Assembly: GCA_964486045.1 (NCBI GenBank)
Contig: CAZALK010000006.1
Location: forward strand, 128,001 to 192,000
Origin: an uncultured archaeon
Lineage (GTDB): Archaea; Asgardarchaeota; Lokiarchaeia; Sigyniarchaeales; SOKP01
Direction of reading: 5' to 3'
DNA: 64,000 nt
In this document: one piece after another, positions 16,953-22,786 of the stretch
Layout of the letters: each line of letters opens with the position of its first letter
Position numbering within the stretch: position 1 is the stretch's first letter
Notes under the pieces: generated by a model
Seen by the model: only the letters and a program-made list of their open reading frames with translations
What the model was told of the DNA's origin: nothing
Database searches by the model: none
Position numbers and translations under genes: made by a program

Positions 16953-17381
16953 TTACTCCCATAATTCAAGAAAATCAAATTCTGAAAATGCGTTAATTCG
17001 TGGAAAATGCTTTTTATCCTTTGTTATTAAAATAATCTTGTTGGCGATTGCTATAGAAGCATTTAATAAATCAAATTGAGGCACTCGCATCCCGCTTCTG
17101 TCCAATTCCGCACAAATCTCTCCATATATTTTACTAGAATTTGAATCTAATGTTTTTATTTCGGAAAGATTAGTGATAAAATTATTTAATTTTTTTGCTT
17201 CAACAATTTGTTTCTGTTTTGATTTTAGAGTATAGACTCCGTACCACAATTCACATGAAGTTAAATAAGTAATCGTTAAATCTGTTCCTTGTGATATTAA
17301 ATTTTTGATTTTTTTTTCTACTTTTGAATCATTTCCTCTCAAAAAATCAATAGCTATATTTGTTTCTACTATTTTAATCAT
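16953..17381 (-). CDS. vapC: VapC PIN-domain toxin
   Basis: ETNIAIDFL, ELWYG, FDLLNASIA, TKDKKHF; overlaps the upstream antitoxin. Confidence 0.85.
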   Translation of the reverse strand: MIKIVETNIAIDFLRGNDSKVEKKIKNLISQGTDLTITYLTSCELWYGVYTLKSKQKQIVEAKKLNNFITNLSEIKTLDSNSSKIYGEICAELDRSGMRVPQFDLLNASIAIANKIILITKDKKHFPRINAFSEFDFLELWE

Positions 17382-17601
17382 TCTTTCCACTACCAGTTAA
17401 ATTTTCCTCTCTGATTTTTGTTAATTTTTCCCCCAATCCTTCCCATAATTCAGGATCAAATTTTTTTTGCATCATTAACCAAGGATTTTTTTTCGTAGAT
17501 ACAAGTCTCTCAATCACATTTGAAAAAGATTCTCCTTCCCTTTTTTCTTTCTTTAATAATTTAAAAACTCGTTCTGATAATGAAATTGTTTTTTGAGTCA
17601 T
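17374..17601 (-). CDS. Archaeal VapB-type antitoxin
   Basis: KTISLSERVFKLLKKEKREGESFSNVIERL; coupled to vapC. Confidence 0.85.
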   Translation of the reverse strand: MTQKTISLSERVFKLLKKEKREGESFSNVIERLVSTKKNPWLMMQKKFDPELWEGLGEKLTKIREENLTGSGKND

Positions 17602-18190: not shown

Positions 18191-18308
18191 GTATCTCAGA
18201 ATTTGATCTAATTTTTTAATACTTCAAATTCTTAAGCTCAAGTTTAAGTTAATTAGGTATCTCAAAATTTGACCTAATTTTTTAGTTCTTCAAATTCTTG
18301 TTCTCAAG
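18191..18308. repeat. Two imperfect direct repeats, 66-bp period
   Basis: gtatctcagaatttgatctaattttttaatacttcaaattctt at 18191 vs gtatctcaaaatttgacctaattttttagttcttcaaattctt at 18257. Confidence 0.8.
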
Positions 18309-18459
18309 TATTAAATTTGCGGAACATCAGGCTTCATTAATATTAACACTTCTCAATTTTAACGAAAAAAGAGAATCGCACGAGATTGATCATTTTCATA
18401 GTTTGGAATTTTGTCGTGTATTTTTTTATATTTCTTTTCCCATAAAATTAAGTTAAGGT

Positions 18460-18554
18460 AAAAATCTTTAAATAAGTAAAAGATAATTATCTATATAACA
18501 AACTCTTTAAAAATAACAAAATTTAATAAAATTATAAAAAATTATAAGTGGAGG
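18460..18554 (+). promoter_or_regulatory. Putative TATA box (TTTAAATA 18467-18474, preceded by an A-run) and SD (GGAGG 18550-18554) of the histone gene
   Basis: Motifs and spacing upstream of ATG 18563; TATA call is weak in AT-rich DNA. Confidence 0.55.
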
Positions 18555-18562
18555 AAAAAAAA

Positions 18563-18856
18563 ATGGCAGGTTCTGAATATATTAGTTGGAGTCCTATTAG
18601 GCGTCTTATGAAACTATAATAATCGACTGGATTATTTCTTCAAAATAATGGCGCTTTAATCGTTGCTCGTGATGCAGTTAACGAGCTCGTTGAATGGATG
18701 GGTAGTTCCGCTGAGAAACTTACTAAAAATGCTTTAGTTTTAACTAAACACTCTAAAAGAAAGAAAATCACGAGTTTCCTTTAGAATTCCTAAAAAAGCG
18801 TGAAAAATGATATTCTTTTAGCGATTAAATACTTCAAATCAGTTAAAATAAGCTAA
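18563..18856 (+). CDS. Archaeal histone-fold protein, split gene: join(18563..18614,18645..18774,18805..18856), 77 aa
   Basis: Joined translation MAGSEYISWSPIRRLMKHNGALIVARDAVNELVEWMGSSAEKLTKNALVLTKHSKRKKITRNDILLAIKYFKSVKIS has histone-fold hallmarks (PIRRLMK..GA..V..DA; H.KRK.I..xDI.LA); SD upstream, T18 tract downstream. Confidence 0.9.
18615..18644 (+). other. Putative BHB/BHL-type mRNA intron 1 (30 nt)
   Basis: Central helix TGAA/TTCA, bulges AC^T and AA^A, exon stem GCGTC-TTA/TAA-(T)-GGCGC, intron stem AATAATC/GATTATT; two in-frame TAA. Confidence 0.8.
18775..18804 (+). other. Putative BHB-type mRNA intron 2 (30 nt)
   Basis: Central helix CACG/CGTG, bulges AG^T and AA^A, intron stem TTTAG/CTAAA, exon stem CTAAAAGAA/TTCTTTTAG; in-frame TAG and TAA. 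Confidence 0.8.
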
Positions 18857-18878
18857 TGCGAACTTAAAATTATATATC

Positions 18879-18896
18879 TTTTTTTTTTTTTTTTTT
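18879..18896 (+). terminator. Poly-T terminator of the histone gene
   Basis: 18 consecutive T shortly after the stop codon. Confidence 0.7.
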
Positions 18897-18944
18897 ATAT
18901 TCTTATCTTATCAAAATTGATACAATTCAAGTTAAATGTTCCTC

Positions 18945-19430
18945 TTACTCCCATAATTCAAGAAAATCAAATTCTGAAAATGTGTTAATTCGTGGAAAAT
19001 GCTTTTTATCTTTTGTTATTAAAATAACTTTATTTGAAATTGCTATAGAAGCATTCAATAAATCAAATTGAGGCACTTGCTTCCCACTTTTATCTAAATC
19101 CGCGCAAATTTCGTCATAAATTTTACTAGAATTTGAATCTAATGTTTTTATTTCGGAAAGGTTGCTAATAAAACTATTTAATTTTTTTGCTTCAACAATT
19201 TGTTTCTGTTTAGATTTTAGAGCATAGATGCCGTACCACAATTCACCTGAAGTTATTTGAGTTATTGTTAAATCATTTCCCTGTGATATTAAATTTTTGA
19301 TTTTTCTTTCTACTTTTTCAAATATTTCTTGAATAAATTTTTTTGCCTTTTCAGGTGAACCTTTTGAAATATATTCAGATATAGCATCGAGGTCTAAGAG
19401 AGCGTCGGTAGACCATTTTATGTCAACCAT
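18945..19430 (-). CDS. Chimeric ORF: ParE/RelE toxin N-terminus fused to VapC C-terminal part
   Basis: IKWSTDALLDLDAISEYISKGSPEKAKKF is ParE-like; from KVE onward it closely matches the VapC at 16953-17381. Confidence 0.8.
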   Translation of the reverse strand: MVDIKWSTDALLDLDAISEYISKGSPEKAKKFIQEIFEKVERKIKNLISQGNDLTITQITSGELWYGIYALKSKQKQIVEAKKLNSFISNLSEIKTLDSNSSKIYDEICADLDKSGKQVPQFDLLNASIAISNKVILITKDKKHFPRINTFSEFDFLELWE

Positions 19431-19609
19431 TTTTTCATTCTTTCCTTTGCATCTTCATGTGTAAGAAAATTTCCATCTTTAATTTGTTGCTGAGCTTTAA
19501 TAATTCTCTCATTAACATACAATCGATATGTAATTTCTTCTACAGGTAAATCATCAGGAAGAGATTTAATAAAATTTAATACTTTATCTTTTGAAGATAA
19601 TGGTGGCAT
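19418..19609 (-). CDS. Putative antitoxin of a ParE/RelE module
   Basis: 63 aa, KDKVLNFIKSLPDD..LTHEDAKERMKKW; overlaps the start of the ParE-like ORF. Confidence 0.7.
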   Translation of the reverse strand: MPPLSSKDKVLNFIKSLPDDLPVEEITYRLYVNERIIKAQQQIKDGNFLTHEDAKERMKKWLT

Positions 19610-19984: not shown

Positions 19985-22786
19985 TTATTTCAAAAATAAT
20001 CGTATAGTAAAAGTGGATCCTTTATTCCGTCCTTTAGATTTTACAAAAATTTCACCTTTATGTAATTTAATGATTTCACTTGCGATATACAATCCAAGAC
20101 CTGGTCCTTCAATATCCACATCCATGCGTTTTCCGTACCTTTCTATTTTACCAAATTTTTTAAACAGGGTTGTCATTTCTTTATCGGTTAATCCTACACC
20201 CGTGTCTCTTATGATTATATCCATAAAATTTTGATGTTTAACTGATTTGATATATACGTCACCATTGGGTTGGGTGTTCTTAACAGCATTAGATAATAGA
20301 TTTAAAATTGCTTTTTTAATCATTCCTTTATCTATGTCTGCAATTAAATCGGTAGGAAGCTCAAGATTTATGATTATTTTACGTTTGTCAGCCTGAAAAA
20401 CTAATACTTCAACACACTCCTTTATTATAAGATTTATATCTTCTCTTTTTATATTTATCCTTATTTGACCAGTTTCTATTTCAAAGGCGGTAATTAAATT
20501 ATCAACCATTTCTTTTAATCTATAACCTCCTTGATGGATAATTTTAATAACATTTTCTACTTCATTATTCATCTTGTCATTAAAATAATCTAAAAGAAAT
20601 TGAGAACCAGTCAAAATGGAAGTTAACGGAGTGTTTAGTTCATGGGAAATTCTTGATATAAGATCATTTCTTAATTGATCGAGTTCTTTTAATTGTTTTA
20701 TTTCTCTTTTTATCATATCATCAATTTTTTTTCTTTCTGTGTTATCGCTTACTAATCCAAAAACTTTAAATTCATTATTAATTTCCACTAGGCTCCATCT
20801 AGCAGAGATTGGTACAAAGTATCCTTTTTTATGTTTTATTCTACATTCTATAAATACAGCTTTTTTAGTTTCTAATGCTTTTTCAGCTGTTTCATTAAAC
20901 AAATTCAAATCTTTAAGGTGTACAAATTCCCTAAAATTCAATCCAATTAATTCCTCTGATTGATATCCAATTAAATTATTTATTTGGGGACTAATATAGG
21001 TTAGAATCCCACTAGGTTCAGCTTCCAACAAAACATCAGAAATGTTGTTTATTAAATTTTGGATTTTTTCCTCTGATTCCTTTAATTTTATAGTCCTATC
21101 CTCTACTTTTTGTTCTAAAATGTTACTCAATCTTCTATATTTCTGCTCTGATTTCTCCAATGACTTTAGTGTTTGACTATTAAAAAGCGATATTGAAGTT
21201 AATTCGGCAAATGCGGTAACTATCCTTGATTCTTCGTCTGTAAATTCCCTTTCCTCCCTTGTTAAACCCATCAAACCTTTTACCTCATCGTTAATTATTA
21301 ATGGGGCAATTAATACATTTTTGAGTGGAACATGCCCTTTGGGTAAGAATTTTATCCAATCACTAGTAGAAAAGTCATTATAGTACATTGTTTTTTTGGA
21401 TTTGATTACCTCAGCTCGCATTCCTCTAATTAGCATTGGTAAATCTGGATCTACTTCGTTTGTCAAACTTTTAGGATTTATAAAAATTTTTTGCTGTTCT
21501 TTCTTACTTGGTGCTAATATTGCAATATAACCTGCATCCGCTCCAATTAAATTATTACAAGAATTAAATATCATTCTTTGGGCTTTTTCAAAATTAATAT
21601 ATTGTAAAACCGCCGTTGAAGCATCAAAAAGCATTGAAATTTCTTTATTTCGATTTTTTAAAGCTTCTTCCGCCTCTTTGCGTTCGGTGATATCTCGAGC
21701 AACACTAATAATTGTGTTTTTTCCCCCGAACTTAAAAACTCGAGAGCTAATTTCAATAGGAACGATGTTTCCATCTTTTGTTATATGTTCAGCTTCTATC
21801 ATGAGCTTTCCTTTTTCATGAAGAGTTTTTATATTTGCTTGTATATCAATTTTATATCCTGGAGGAGTTATATCTTTAGGAGTCAACTTCAATAATTCTT
21901 CTCTGGTATAACCCAATCGTTCGCAAGCTGTTTGATTTACCTCAATAAATTGACTACCTCTGTCATGAATGAAAATCGCATCATTAGTATTTTCAAATAG
22001 GGCTCTAAATTTTTCCTCAGAATTTTTTAAAGCTTCTTCCGCCTCTTTGCGTTCGGTGATATCTCGAGCAACACTAATAATTGTGTTTTTTCCCCCGAAC
22101 TTAAAAACTCGAGAGCTAATTTCAATAGGAACGATGTTTCCATCTTTTGTTATATGTTCAGCTTCTATCATGAGCTTTCCTTTTTCATGAAGAGTTTTTA
22201 TATTTGCTTGTATATCAATTTTATATCCTGGAGGAGTTATATCTTTAGGAGTCAACTTCAATAATTCTTCTCTGGTATAACCCAATCGTTCGCAAGCTGT
22301 TTGATTTACCTCAATAAATTGACTACCTCTGTCATGAATGAAAATCGCATCATTAGTATTTTCAAATAGGGCTCTAAATTTTTCCTCAGAATTTTTTAAA
22401 GCTTCTTCCGCCTCTTTGCGTTCGGTGATATCTCGAGCAACACTAATAATTGTGTTTTTTCCCCCGAACTTAAAAACTCGAGAGCTAATTTCAATAGGAA
22501 CGATGTTTCCATCTTTTGTTATATGTTCAGCTTCTATCATGAGCTTTCCTTTTTCATGAAGAGTTTTTATATTTGCTTGTATATCAATTTTATATCCTGG
22601 AGGAGTTATATCTTTAGGAGTCAACTTCAATAATTCTTCTCTGGTATAACCCAATCGTTCGCAAGCTGTTTGATTTACCTCAATAAATTGACTACCTCTG
22701 TCATGAATGAAAATCGCATCATTAGTATTTTCAAATAGGGCTCTAAATTTTTCCTCAGATTCTTTAATTTCTTGTTCTGTCTTCAT
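19985..22786 (-). CDS. PAS-PAS-PAS-GAF-PAS sensor histidine kinase
   Basis: SHELNTPLT H-box, NLLSNAVK, DTGVG, GLGLYI; repeated PAS domains. Confidence 0.95.
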   Translation of the reverse strand: MKTEQEIKESEEKFRALFENTNDAIFIHDRGSQFIEVNQTACERLGYTREELLKLTPKDITPPGYKIDIQANIKTLHEKGKLMIEAEHITKDGNIVPIEISSRVFKFGGKNTIISVARDITERKEAEEALKNSEEKFRALFENTNDAIFIHDRGSQFIEVNQTACERLGYTREELLKLTPKDITPPGYKIDIQANIKTLHEKGKLMIEAEHITKDGNIVPIEISSRVFKFGGKNTIISVARDITERKEAEEALKNSEEKFRALFENTNDAIFIHDRGSQFIEVNQTACERLGYTREELLKLTPKDITPPGYKIDIQANIKTLHEKGKLMIEAEHITKDGNIVPIEISSRVFKFGGKNTIISVARDITERKEAEEALKNRNKEISMLFDASTAVLQYINFEKAQRMIFNSCNNLIGADAGYIAILAPSKKEQQKIFINPKSLTNEVDPDLPMLIRGMRAEVIKSKKTMYYNDFSTSDWIKFLPKGHVPLKNVLIAPLIINDEVKGLMGLTREEREFTDEESRIVTAFAELTSISLFNSQTLKSLEKSEQKYRRLSNILEQKVEDRTIKLKESEEKIQNLINNISDVLLEAEPSGILTYISPQINNLIGYQSEELIGLNFREFVHLKDLNLFNETAEKALETKKAVFIECRIKHKKGYFVPISARWSLVEINNEFKVFGLVSDNTERKKIDDMIKREIKQLKELDQLRNDLISRISHELNTPLTSILTGSQFLLDYFNDKMNNEVENVIKIIHQGGYRLKEMVDNLITAFEIETGQIRINIKREDINLIIKECVEVLVFQADKRKIIINLELPTDLIADIDKGMIKKAILNLLSNAVKNTQPNGDVYIKSVKHQNFMDIIIRDTGVGLTDKEMTTLFKKFGKIERYGKRMDVDIEGPGLGLYIASEIIKLHKGEIFVKSKGRNKGSTFTIRLFLK
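21653..22759. repeat. Three tandem 369-bp repeats, identical by eye (one PAS domain each)
   Basis: Units 21653-22021, 22022-22390, 22391-22759; identical translations in the ORF track. Confidence 0.97.

What the first reader, a model, noticed from the sequence alone, without database searches (positions are those of the whole stretch)
18563..18856. Histone gene split by two bulge-helix-bulge mRNA introns in a probable Asgard archaeon
Seen: the histone-fold reading frame is interrupted by two 30-nt blocks of unrelated sequence, each with two in-frame stops. Exons are 52/130/52 nt with no other lesion, a GGAGG SD upstream and a T18 tract downstream. Both blocks fold with the exons into a 4-bp helix flanked by 3-nt bulges (A-N-T and AAA). 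Cutting after the second bulge base, the rule for the archaeal tRNA-splicing endonuclease EndA, gives CAT (His, ..MKHNG..) and AGA (Arg, ..KITRND..) and a 77-aa histone. Established: EndA plus RtcB splice BHB introns from tRNA/rRNA, and the crenarchaeal cbf5 mRNA is the classic protein-coding case. I know of no multi-intron histone mRNA in archaea but cannot search to confirm. Inference: mRNA splicing of a chromatin gene in the lineage closest to eukaryotes, invisible to standard gene callers.
Basis: partly seen in the sequence, partly recalled or inferred. Interest (0 to 1): 0.97.

Follow-up and report, generated by a model that had tools for sequence, protein, structure and literature searches.

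The report
Histone gene split by two mini-introns
A histone gene of an uncultured Asgard (Promethearchaeota) archaeon is broken by two 30-base inserts shaped exactly like the introns that archaea cut out of tRNAs, and comparison with dozens of relatives shows that the gene stays under selection while interrupted, so its mRNA is almost certainly cut and rejoined by the tRNA-splicing enzymes, something published so far for only one archaeal protein gene (cbf5).

Summary
No RNA data exist. Comparative evidence supports mRNA splicing by the tRNA-splicing endonuclease EndA and the RNA ligase RtcB.

- **Boundaries:** Uninterrupted orthologues define them exactly.
- **Sites:** Close histone genes carry inserts at six sites, nearly all 30 nt.
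- **Shared build:** 1 bulge nt, a 23-nt hairpin, 4 nt pairing with the upstream exon, and 2 bulge nt.
- **Pairing:** 90% of predicted pairs form, against 33–46% in shifted registers.
- **Allele integrity:** Thirteen interrupted alleles from independent assemblies all splice to intact ORFs.
- **Selection:** dN/dS is 0.03–0.17, with dS up to about 2.
- **Intron 1:** It varies only in its 5-nt loop.
- **Intron 2:** It shows a compensatory U-A→C-G swap.
- **Frame:** Some alleles are 29 or 32 nt, so read-through is impossible.
- **Essential genes:** The same inserts split the single-copy RpoA′ and EF-2 genes, and at least 10 other genes here.
- **Enzymes:** The genome encodes an (αβ)2 EndA and RtcB.

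This scan has noted such mRNA mini-introns before on other DNA and elsewhere in this genome. In print only cbf5 is known. I rate it a new variant of a known kind.

The parts
18389..18943 (+). Conserved histone cassette: upstream region, interrupted gene and T-tract terminator
   Evidence: This is the only block alignable between G000 and G049/G019 (about 90% identity over 555 nt), and the flanks are unrelated. A contig of run X22 also starts matching at 18389.
18550..18554 (+). Shine-Dalgarno-like GGAGG, 8 nt upstream of the ATG
   Evidence: Read directly. The same GGAGGA-N-ATG layout precedes the other histone genes.
18563..18614 (+). Exon 1 (52 nt; codons 1-17 plus the first base of His18). 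Its bases 18609-18612 (UGAA) form the exon strand of the central 4-bp helix of intron 1.
18615..18644 (+). Mini-intron 1 (site A, 30 nt, phase 1). Layout: bulge nt U, 23-nt hairpin (7/9 pairs, loop GACUG), UUCA pairing with exon UGAA, then AA. It contains in-frame TAA TAA.
   Evidence: The insert is absent from most orthologues, with exact boundaries. In 11 alleles of 30 nt, only the loop columns 11-15 vary.
18645..18774 (+). Exon 2 (130 nt). Its bases 18769-18772 (CACG) form the exon strand of the central helix of intron 2.
18775..18804 (+). Mini-intron 2 (site D, 30 nt, phase 2). Layout: bulge nt U, 23-nt hairpin (7/9 pairs, loop AAUUC), CGUG pairing with exon CACG, then AA. It contains in-frame TAG and TAA.
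   Evidence: Allele L247 has a compensatory U-A to C-G change at intron positions 7 and 19. The paralogue in G007 has helix UACG/CGUA instead of CACG/CGUG.
18805..18856 (+). Exon 3 (52 nt, including the TAA stop)
18879..18896 (+). T18 tract, the likely oligo-T transcription terminator
   Evidence: Read directly. That archaeal RNA polymerase terminates at oligo-T runs is established knowledge; it was not tested here.

Best explanation
The locus is a functional archaeal histone gene carrying two 30-nt bulge-helix-bulge (BHB) mini-introns that are removed from the mRNA.

**Fold.** In each intron, the four exon bases that precede the last two exon bases pair with intron bases 25-28. This makes the 4-bp central helix. 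Intron bases 2-24 form a hairpin, which is helix h'. That leaves two 3-nt bulges on opposite strands.

**Cleavage and ligation.** The heterotetrameric (αβ)2 splicing endonuclease EndA cuts after the second base of each bulge. RtcB then joins the exons and probably circularises the 30-nt intron. The product is an mRNA for a 77-aa histone.

**Unspliced mRNA.** It can yield only a 17-18-aa peptide, because stop codons follow each 5' junction.

**What is shown.** The geometry, the exact junctions, conservation and covariation of the structure, purifying selection on the interrupted gene, and presence of the enzymes.

**What is inferred.** Cleavage and ligation themselves, the order of events, and any regulatory role.

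**Context.** The introns belong to a genome-wide population of structurally uniform, sequence-diverse mini-introns. They are gained and lost between close relatives.
For: **1. Exact junctions.** About 25 uninterrupted orthologues and paralogues read exactly as the spliced product does.

**2. One architecture at independent sites.** Six insertion sites (A-F) occur in three histone gene families of this genus.
- Nearly all inserts are 30 nt.
- The central helix is 4/4 in 9 of 11 inserts and 3/4 in two.
- The hairpin has 6-9 of 9 pairs.
- In nine inserts that were not found by structure, 89.7% of predicted pairs form.
- The controls give 33-46% in registers slid by 1-3 nt, and 46 ± 4% (maximum 58%) in 2000 shuffles.

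**3. Structural constraint in this very gene.**
- Intron A varies only in its 5-nt loop across 11 alleles, while 33 of 213 exon sites vary.
- Intron D has a compensatory U-A to C-G swap at positions 7 and 19, plus two C-to-U changes that repair mismatches.
- At site D the helix is CACG/CGUG in this gene and UACG/CGUA in a paralogue.

**4. The gene is functional while interrupted.**
- All 13 interrupted alleles splice to intact ORFs.
- dN/dS between alleles that share intron A is 0.03-0.17, with dS of 0.36 to above 1.8.

**5. The inserts cannot be translated through.**
- Codons are split (phases 1 and 2).
- Some alleles are 29 nt (L236, L238) or 32 nt (G049, site F).

**6. Essential genes carry the same inserts.**
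- The only RpoA' gene and the only EF-2 gene of this 99%-complete genome are split inside GHFGH|IELA and AH|IDHGKTT.
- The RpoA' intron recurs in four other species with covariation. One case is an exon wobble change, GGAC to GGGC, matched by GUCU to GCCU in the intron.

**7. Machinery.**
- The EndA α subunit carries the Tyr/His/Lys triad. Its best solved match is the A. pernix catalytic subunit 3p1z_B (E 1e-33).
- A second EndA protein lacks the catalytic His, which marks it as the β subunit.
- RtcB is intact.
- Kaneta et al. 2018 (PMC5829648) report the (αβ)2 type for Asgard archaea. They report that this type cleaves relaxed BHB motifs at non-canonical positions.
Against: - **No RNA evidence.** No RNA run holds the locus, so splicing itself is unobserved.
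- **Weak outer helix.** The exon-exon helix is weak, especially for intron 2 (4/8 contiguous pairs). These are therefore relaxed HBh'-type motifs that depend on a broad-specificity enzyme.
- **Folding predictions.** Minimum-free-energy folds with long flanks do not always draw the 4-bp central helix.
- **Degraded helices.** Two alleles have only 3/4 central pairs: G019 at site D and G049 at site F.
- **Low information content.** The motif is not over-represented genome-wide (869 hits against 905 in the reversed genome). Structure alone does not mark an intron.
- **Not essential.** The histone has three uninterrupted paralogues in the genome. Essentiality is argued from other genes, not from this one.
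- **Timing.** Archaeal transcription and translation are coupled, and how splicing precedes translation is unknown.
Confidence: 0.87

Rival explanations
1. The gene is a pseudogene, inactivated by insertion of small mobile hairpin elements. The BHB-like shape would then be incidental or a relic.
For: - The inserts carry stop codons.
- Three uninterrupted histone paralogues could cover the function.
- dN/dS among the three closest alleles is only 0.25-0.59, based on very few changes.
- One allele (G019, site D) has a mismatch in the central helix.
Against: - Thirteen alleles keep intact exons.
- dN/dS is 0.03-0.17 over dS up to above 1.8 between alleles that share intron A.
- Stems are conserved or compensated while loops vary freely.
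- Identical inserts split the only RpoA' and EF-2 genes, which cannot be pseudogenes.
- No target-site duplication or terminal repeats are visible, and each insert is unique in the genome.
Confidence: 0.04
2. The inserts stay in the mRNA and are dealt with by the ribosome. This could be translational bypassing (as in T4 gene 60 or the yeast mitochondrial 'byp' elements), or stop-codon read-through giving a histone with two 10-residue loops.
For: - The inserts are short hairpins with a stop codon close to the 5' junction, as in known bypass elements (from my own knowledge of those systems).
- 30 nt is a multiple of three.
Against: - Both junctions split a codon (C|AU, AG|A). Hopping cannot rebuild the conserved His and Arg codons.
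- No matching take-off and landing codons give the conserved sequence (read).
- Alleles of 29 and 32 nt break the frame.
- A read-through translation scores below the PF00808 cut-off (20.7 against 21.4 bits). The spliced protein scores 36.2 bits.
- Other long ORFs of the window and genome are open under table 11, which gives no sign of stop-codon reassignment.
Confidence: 0.03
3. The inserts are removed, but not by EndA/RtcB on RNA. Options are DNA-level excision in part of the population, or an unknown RNA-processing activity that recognises the hairpin.
For: - No direct evidence names the enzyme.
- Presence/absence polymorphism with exact boundaries would also arise from precise DNA excision.
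Against: - In every case the cut sites follow the EndA rule: the second base of each 3-nt bulge around a 4-bp helix. More than 20 inserts were checked.
- The exon strand of the helix covaries with the intron. That is expected only if this helix is what is recognised.
- Contigs laid on the locus show only the insert-bearing form, at depth about 245. Contigs can hide rare variants.
- No archaeal system of precise small-DNA excision is known to me.
Confidence: 0.05

Closest known systems
BHB intron of the cbf5 (pseudouridine synthase) pre-mRNA in Crenarchaeota (Watanabe 2002; Yoshinari 2006; Yokobori 2009, PMC2738675)
   Same: - It is a protein-coding gene interrupted by a short BHB intron.
- Removal is by the tRNA-splicing endonuclease of heterotetrameric (αβ)2 type.
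- Intron presence varies between related lineages.
- Gene callers miss it.
   Different: - cbf5 has one intron in one gene family. PMC2738675 states that splicing was confirmed for no gene other than cbf5. PMC7714728 (2020) still calls it the only coding example.
- Here one 77-codon gene has two introns, and its close relatives have introns at six sites.
- The introns share a uniform 30-nt build.
- At least 13 genes of the genome are affected, among them RpoA' and EF-2.
- The host is an Asgard archaeon.
- Splicing is not yet shown here.
Non-canonical and multiple BHB introns of archaeal tRNA genes, very abundant in some Asgard lineages (PMC5829648; bioRxiv 10.64898/2026.10.13.758758)
   Same: - The topology matches a canonical tRNA intron. 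The exon bases upstream of the 5' site pair with the 3' part of the intron, and an intron-internal hairpin follows.
- The same enzymes are implied.
- There is the same pattern of repeated gains at sites that can fold into the motif.
- This genome's tRNA set also looks heavily interrupted.
   Different: - The host RNA is an mRNA, with no tRNA body to help recognition.
- The preprint does not mention mRNA at all (0 occurrences).
BHB intron in the 5' UTR of Haloferax volcanii HVO_1309 (Schwarz et al. 2020, PMC7714728)
   Same: An mRNA is processed by EndA at a BHB motif, and the excised piece is circularised.
   Different: That intron lies in the untranslated leader (46 nt) and does not interrupt the reading frame.
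Unconventional splicing of HAC1/XBP1 mRNA in eukaryotes (own knowledge, not checked here)
   Same: This is protein-only, spliceosome-independent mRNA splicing at paired stem-loops. In animals the exons are rejoined by RtcB. Splicing changes which protein can be made.
   Different: The endonuclease is Ire1, not the tRNA-splicing endonuclease. It affects one regulated target and has no relation to BHB geometry.

Membership tests
Archaeal BHB intron (substrate of EndA, ligated by RtcB) | Two 3-nt bulges on opposite strands, separated by a 4-bp helix at the exon-intron boundaries | tested here: met
   Intron 1 has UGAA/UUCA with bulges ACU and AAA. Intron 2 has CACG/CGUG with bulges AGU and AAA.
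Archaeal BHB intron (substrate of EndA, ligated by RtcB) | Cutting at the symmetric bulge positions (after the second bulge base) gives a correct mature RNA | tested here: met
   The junctions equal the sequence of uninterrupted orthologues. All 13 alleles give intact histone ORFs. The cut position within the bulge is taken from my own knowledge of the motif; it fits position 37/38 of tRNA introns.
Archaeal BHB intron (substrate of EndA, ligated by RtcB) | Flanking helices h (exon-exon) and h' (intron-internal) of the strict hBHBh' motif | tested here: inconclusive
   The h' helix is present (7/9 pairs in both introns). The outer helix is plausible for intron 1 (3 bp, a bulge, then 5 bp) but weak for intron 2. 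These are best described as relaxed HBh' motifs.
Archaeal BHB intron (substrate of EndA, ligated by RtcB) | The structure is kept in evolution through compensatory changes | tested here: met
   variation confined to the loop, U-A to C-G at positions 7/19, CACG/CGUG against UACG/CGUA, and GGAC/GUCU against GGGC/GCCU in RpoA'.
Archaeal BHB intron (substrate of EndA, ligated by RtcB) | The host encodes a splicing endonuclease able to cut relaxed motifs outside tRNA, and the RtcB ligase | tested here: met
   Two PF01974 genes are present. One is catalytic and most like the A. pernix α subunit; the other lacks the catalytic His. One intact PF01139 gene is present. The link between type and specificity comes from PMC5829648.
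Archaeal BHB intron (substrate of EndA, ligated by RtcB) | Observed cleavage and ligation: spliced RNA, circular intron, or an in vitro assay | not testable with these tools
   No RNA run holds the locus. Only DNA contigs could be laid on it.
Archaeal histone (PF00808, HMf type) | Histone fold of about 65-70 residues matching the family profile over its whole length | tested here: met
   The spliced protein matches PF00808 at E 7.7e-9, profile positions 6-65 of 65. It aligns without gaps to HMfA residues 7-69.
Archaeal histone (PF00808, HMf type) | Conserved loop-2/helix-3 'RK(T/K)..(T)...D' motif and the N-terminal 'PI.R' DNA-contact residues | tested here: met
   The alignment to HMfA shows PIRR aligned with PIGR, and KHSKRKKITRNDI aligned with KHAGRKTIKAEDI. 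The role of these residues is from my own knowledge.

The most novel reading that the evidence does not exclude
Promethearchaeota (Loki-type Asgard archaea) may maintain a dynamic population of uniform ~30-nt mini-introns in their mRNAs. The tRNA-splicing enzymes would remove them.

The introns appear to turn over quickly.
- Six sites are used in one ~70-codon histone family.
- Presence varies between species in RpoA'.
- An allele 92-93% identical to intron-bearing ones lacks intron A precisely.
- Introns at two different sites are 21/30 identical.

This would mean that protein-enzyme mRNA splicing is routine in the closest archaeal relatives of eukaryotes. It would also mean that introns come and go by an RNA-mediated route, such as reverse splicing or recombination with cDNA of spliced mRNA. 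Such a route would favour highly expressed genes such as histones, EF-2 and RNA polymerase.
Probability: 0.35. Interest if true: 0.95.

Novelty: new variant of a known kind. Interest (0 to 1): 0.82.

Why it matters
**Gap in print.** In the papers I could search, splicing of a coding sequence by the tRNA-splicing machinery is documented in archaea for cbf5 only.

**What changes if the reading is right.** mRNA splicing would be a routine step of gene expression in an Asgard lineage. It would reach core genes for chromatin, transcription and translation.

**Practical consequences.**
- Standard gene callers truncate or miss these genes. This biases Asgard proteomes, histone catalogues and completeness estimates.
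- The system gives a natural, datable series of intron gains and losses in close relatives. That makes the open question of how archaeal introns arrive testable. The 2026 tRNA census states that this question remains open.

**Link to eukaryote origins.** It adds a spliceosome-independent precedent for interrupted protein genes in the lineage from which eukaryotes arose. This does not imply any homology to spliceosomal introns.

Tried and rejected
- **RNA evidence.** No RNA holder is listed for the 9.9-kb stretch or for the gene alone. Only DNA contigs (X1, X2, X4) and an unclassified run (X22) could be laid on the locus. Expression and splicing therefore could not be examined.
- **Rfam and ARAGORN on the window.** Both found nothing.
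- **First genome-wide scan (central helix plus ORF rescue).**
  - It was swamped by adjacent-gene fusions and gave only a weak excess at 30 nt (14,264 against 13,639 decoys).
  - I do not use it as evidence.
- **Strict architecture scan.**
  - It showed no enrichment against the reversed genome (869 against 905) or against other lengths.
  - It was useful only as a candidate list, which I then checked by homology.
  - A complete census was not achieved.
- **dN/dS among the three closest alleles.** There were too few substitutions for a conclusion. The metagenome alleles replaced this test.
- **tRNA introns by ARAGORN.** Its predictions in this genome are unreliable (31 genes, odd anticodons). 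I draw only the qualitative point that the tRNA set looks heavily interrupted.
- **Closed genomes among relatives (G006, G023, G032, G033, G038).** Their adk and RpoA' genes are uninterrupted. No cultured proxy for an RNA test was identified.
- **Sequence families among introns.** Each intron is unique in the genome. Only introns C and D resemble each other.
- **Candidates without Pfam support.** These are a Zn-finger-like ORF on C21 and an ORF on C23. I left them uncounted.

Full report
**1. The observation.**
A 294-nt frame starts with ATG, 8 nt after GGAGG (18550-18554). It ends with TAA and is followed by a T18 run (18879-18896).
- In-frame translation gives a histone-like protein broken by two 10-codon blocks. 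The first (18615-18644) holds TAA TAA. The second (18775-18804) holds TAG and TAA.
- Removing both blocks gives a 77-aa protein. It matches PF00808 (E 7.7e-9) and aligns without gaps to Methanothermus histone HMfA.
- With the blocks read through as X, the Pfam score falls below the family cut-off (20.7 against 21.4 bits).

**2. The inserts are real.**
- An independent Logan contig of run X1 (1717 nt) covers 18300-18864 with no difference.
- The same two-insert gene occurs in two other species' genomes, G019 and G049.
- It also occurs in ten metagenome contigs from several projects.
- Records holding the closest relatives are titled Promethearchaeota or Promethearchaeia. The 'probable Asgard archaeon' is therefore confirmed.
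- The genome is 5.18 Mb in 45 contigs and 99% complete.

**3. Exact boundaries from relatives.**
- A nucleotide alignment of 32 close histone genes from the genus shows that most are uninterrupted. They read ...AUGAAAC|AYAAYGG... and ...ACNNG|RRAYGA... across the two sites.
- Each block is therefore a clean 30-nt insertion.
- The alignment also revealed inserts at other places:
  - site B and site C in the paralogue on contig C12 of this same genome;
  - site D in a paralogue of G007;
  - site E in G020;
  - site F, resolved in a third, tail-bearing histone gene of this genome. Its 27 uninterrupted orthologues read ...EGYIAK|APIRR....
- In G000, three of six histone genes carry five inserts.

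**4. One architecture.**
- All these inserts share one build:
  - one bulge base;
  - a symmetric 23-nt hairpin, typically 9 bp with a 5-nt loop;
  - four bases that pair with the four exon bases lying just before the last two exon bases;
  - two bulge bases, almost always AA.
- This is the topology of a canonical tRNA intron, with a 4-bp helix between two 3-nt bulges. Cutting after the second bulge base gives the junction seen in uninterrupted genes every time.
- For a fixed 30-nt stretch of this genome, the chance of a 4/4 helix is 0.025. The chance of at least 7/9 hairpin pairs is 0.026.
- I took nine inserts found by homology rather than by structure. In these, 89.7% of the 13 predicted pairs form.
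- The controls give 33-46% when the 3' partner is slid by 1-3 nt, and 46 ± 4% (maximum 58%) in 2000 shuffles.

**5. Constraint on the introns of this gene.**
- A pattern scan of metagenome contigs returned 20 stretches: 10 interrupted histone alleles and 10 chance matches.
- With G000, G019 and G049 that gives 13 interrupted alleles.
- Among the eleven 30-nt alleles of intron A, the only variable columns are 11-15, exactly the loop. Meanwhile 33 of 213 exon sites vary.
- Intron D varies at eight columns.
  - Positions 7 and 19 are predicted partners and change together, U-A to C-G, in L247.
  - Two C-to-U changes in L247 turn mismatches into pairs.
  - U·G becomes U-A at the base of the stem.
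- At site D the paralogue of G007 has helix UACG/CGUA where this gene has CACG/CGUG. Its unrelated interior forms a perfect 10-bp hairpin.
- Exceptions are a G·A mismatch in the helix of the G019 allele and a 3/4 helix in G049 at site F.

**6. The gene is under selection while interrupted.**
- All 13 alleles splice to intact 71-77-aa ORFs.
- Between alleles that share intron A, dN/dS is 0.03-0.17, with dS from 0.36 to above 1.8.
- Such divergence with intact exons and conserved intron stems does not fit a dead gene.
- Two alleles (L236, L238) carry a 29-nt intron A and no intron D. G049 carries a 32-nt insert at site F.
- These lengths break the frame, so read-through cannot be the solution. 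Both junctions here also split a codon, which rules out ribosomal hopping.

**7. The same inserts split essential genes.**
- A structure-plus-ORF scan of the whole genome was too noisy for statistics, but it yielded candidates that homology confirms.
- The sole RpoA' gene is split in GHFGH|IELA. Pfam Rpb1_1 positions 2-312 match in one stretch with 10 extra residues.
- The sole EF-2 gene is split in AH|IDHGKTT.
- Also split are a thiolase (CASG|MD), an AMP/thymidine-phosphorylase-like gene and two Ras/Rab-like GTPases.
- Further split genes are two AIR-synthase-like genes, adenylate kinase (29 nt, inside the P-loop) and a mevalonate-kinase-like gene (31 nt).
- That makes 15 homology-supported inserts in 13 genes. 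This is a lower bound.
- The RpoA' intron is present in 5 of 30 genus genomes aligned.
  - An exon wobble change, GGAC to GGGC, is matched by GUCU to GCCU in the intron.
  - Several stem pairs are swapped.

**8. Machinery.**
- The genome has two PF01974 genes of about 200 aa.
- One keeps the Tyr/His/Lys triad and a KPR loop. It is most like the catalytic subunit of the Aeropyrum pernix heterotetramer (3p1z_B, E 1e-33).
- The other has Ser where the catalytic His should be.
- This is the (αβ)2 type that Kaneta et al. 2018 (PMC5829648) report for Asgard archaea. They link it to cleavage of relaxed motifs at non-canonical positions.
- RtcB is present and intact.
- ARAGORN finds only 31 tRNA genes, 20 of them 'with intron'. 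This fits the heavily interrupted tRNA sets described for some Asgard lineages (bioRxiv 10.64898/2026.10.13.758758).

**9. Mechanism.**
- Most likely the pre-mRNA folds locally at each site and EndA cuts both bulges. RtcB then joins the exons and circularises the intron. Only the spliced mRNA encodes the histone.
- The geometry, junctions, constraint and enzymes are shown. The reaction is inferred.
- A regulatory role is possible but unsupported. Polymorphism between close relatives, and insertion into conserved motifs of abundant mRNAs, look more like selfish or neutral elements tolerated by a permissive endonuclease.

**10. Turnover.**
- The G022 allele lacks intron A yet is 92-93% identical to intron-bearing alleles. 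Intron-A alleles L236 and L238 are only 77% identical to it. This suggests precise loss, or repeated gain at one site.
- Introns C and D, 20 nt apart in two paralogues, are 21/30 identical, against a null 95th percentile of 17.
- Similarity between G000 and G049/G019 is confined to a 555-nt cassette (window 18389-18943) with unrelated flanks. Their RpoA' regions are only about 70% identical. The interrupted gene may therefore move between genomes.

**11. Comparison with what is known.**
- PMC2738675 (2009) states that pre-mRNA splicing was confirmed for no archaeal gene other than cbf5.
- PMC7714728 (2020) still lists cbf5 as the only coding example and adds a 5'-UTR intron in Haloferax.
- Seven full-text searches found no report of BHB introns in Asgard protein genes or in any archaeal histone gene.
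- Earlier notes of this scan describe similar mRNA mini-introns on other DNA and elsewhere in this genome. I re-derived the cases I use.
- I file the finding as a new variant of a known kind. The enzyme system and the motif are known. The new elements are the uniform 30-nt class, several introns per gene, rapid turnover, and the reach into histone, RNA polymerase and EF-2 genes of an Asgard archaeon.

**12. Verdict.**
- Confidence that these are EndA/RtcB-spliced mRNA introns is 0.87.
- The missing piece is RNA or enzymatic evidence.

Noticed in passing
G000:C12:112703-112978 (locus L002:1501-1776): A paralogous histone gene in the same genome (88% protein identity) also has two 30-nt BHB inserts, but at other codons. 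Site B follows ..GGGGCUGU, with helix GGCU/GGCU. Site C follows ..CACUCUAAA, with helix UCUA/UAGG.
   Followed up: yes
G000:C7:137236-137499 (L006, L163, L194): A third histone gene, with a Lys-rich N-terminal tail (MAKKKAPAKKK...), carries a 30-nt insert between ..YIAK and APIRR.. (helix GCCA/UGGU). G049 has a 32-nt insert at the same site. G051 has two inserts. Twenty-seven other genus loci have none.
   Followed up: yes
G000 contigs C13:44101-44130, C13:92018-92047, C3:186175-186204, C7:186723-186752, C1:354340-354369, C17:96895-96924, C5:195271-195300, C1:759271-759300, C5:233440-233468, C11:28707-28737: Inserts of 29-31 nt with the same architecture split several genes. These are RpoA', EF-2, a thiolase, an AMP/thymidine-phosphorylase-like gene, two Ras/Rab-like GTPases, two AIR-synthase-like genes, adenylate kinase and a mevalonate-kinase-like gene. 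Most lie inside conserved motifs.
   Followed up: partly
L175 (G063) and L185 (G043), RpoA' region: These two genomes have a second, 35-nt insert five bases after the first RpoA' intron. Its central helix (UAUA/UAUA) uses a U that becomes adjacent only after the first intron is removed. This suggests ordered, sequential splicing.
   Followed up: partly
window 18389-18943: The histone cassette is about 90% identical (coding part 94-96%) between G000 and G049/G019, and the flanks are unrelated. The RpoA' regions of these genomes are only about 70% identical. This hints at lateral movement of the interrupted gene.
   Followed up: partly
L026 (G022:C189:3-131): This allele is 92-93% identical to the intron-bearing alleles but lacks intron A precisely. 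More distant alleles (77%) have it. This is a candidate for precise intron loss.
   Followed up: partly
L002 intron C vs window 18775-18804: Introns at two different sites (C and D) of two paralogues share 21 of 30 bases, including the loop region AGRAUUCCUA. The shuffled-sequence 95th percentile is 17. No other intron pair is that similar.
   Followed up: partly
window 18610-18614: Two contigs of run X22, a relative with about 93% identity upstream, end at 18610 and 18614, the exon 1/intron 1 boundary. A graph branch there could mean that alleles with and without the intron, or with a different intron, coexist in that sample.
   Followed up: no
window 19985-22786 (-): This 933-aa sensor histidine-kinase-like ORF begins with three nearly identical tandem copies of a ~125-aa PAS-like unit (EEALKNSEEKFRALFENTNDAIFIHDRG...). 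The near-identity suggests very recent internal duplication.
   Followed up: no
window 17374-17601 (-) and 18945-19609 (-): Small ORFs flank the histone cassette (75 aa; 161 aa overlapping a 63-aa ORF). By eye they look like toxin-antitoxin pairs, which would fit a variable genomic region. This was not checked against any library.
   Followed up: no
G000:C28:21946-22047 (-): ARAGORN's tRNA-Ala(CGC) has a 30-nt insert at position 32 with the same 1+23+4+2 layout (helix 3/4, hairpin 8/9, 3' bulge AA|U). Overall only 31 tRNA genes are found in a 99%-complete genome.
   Followed up: no
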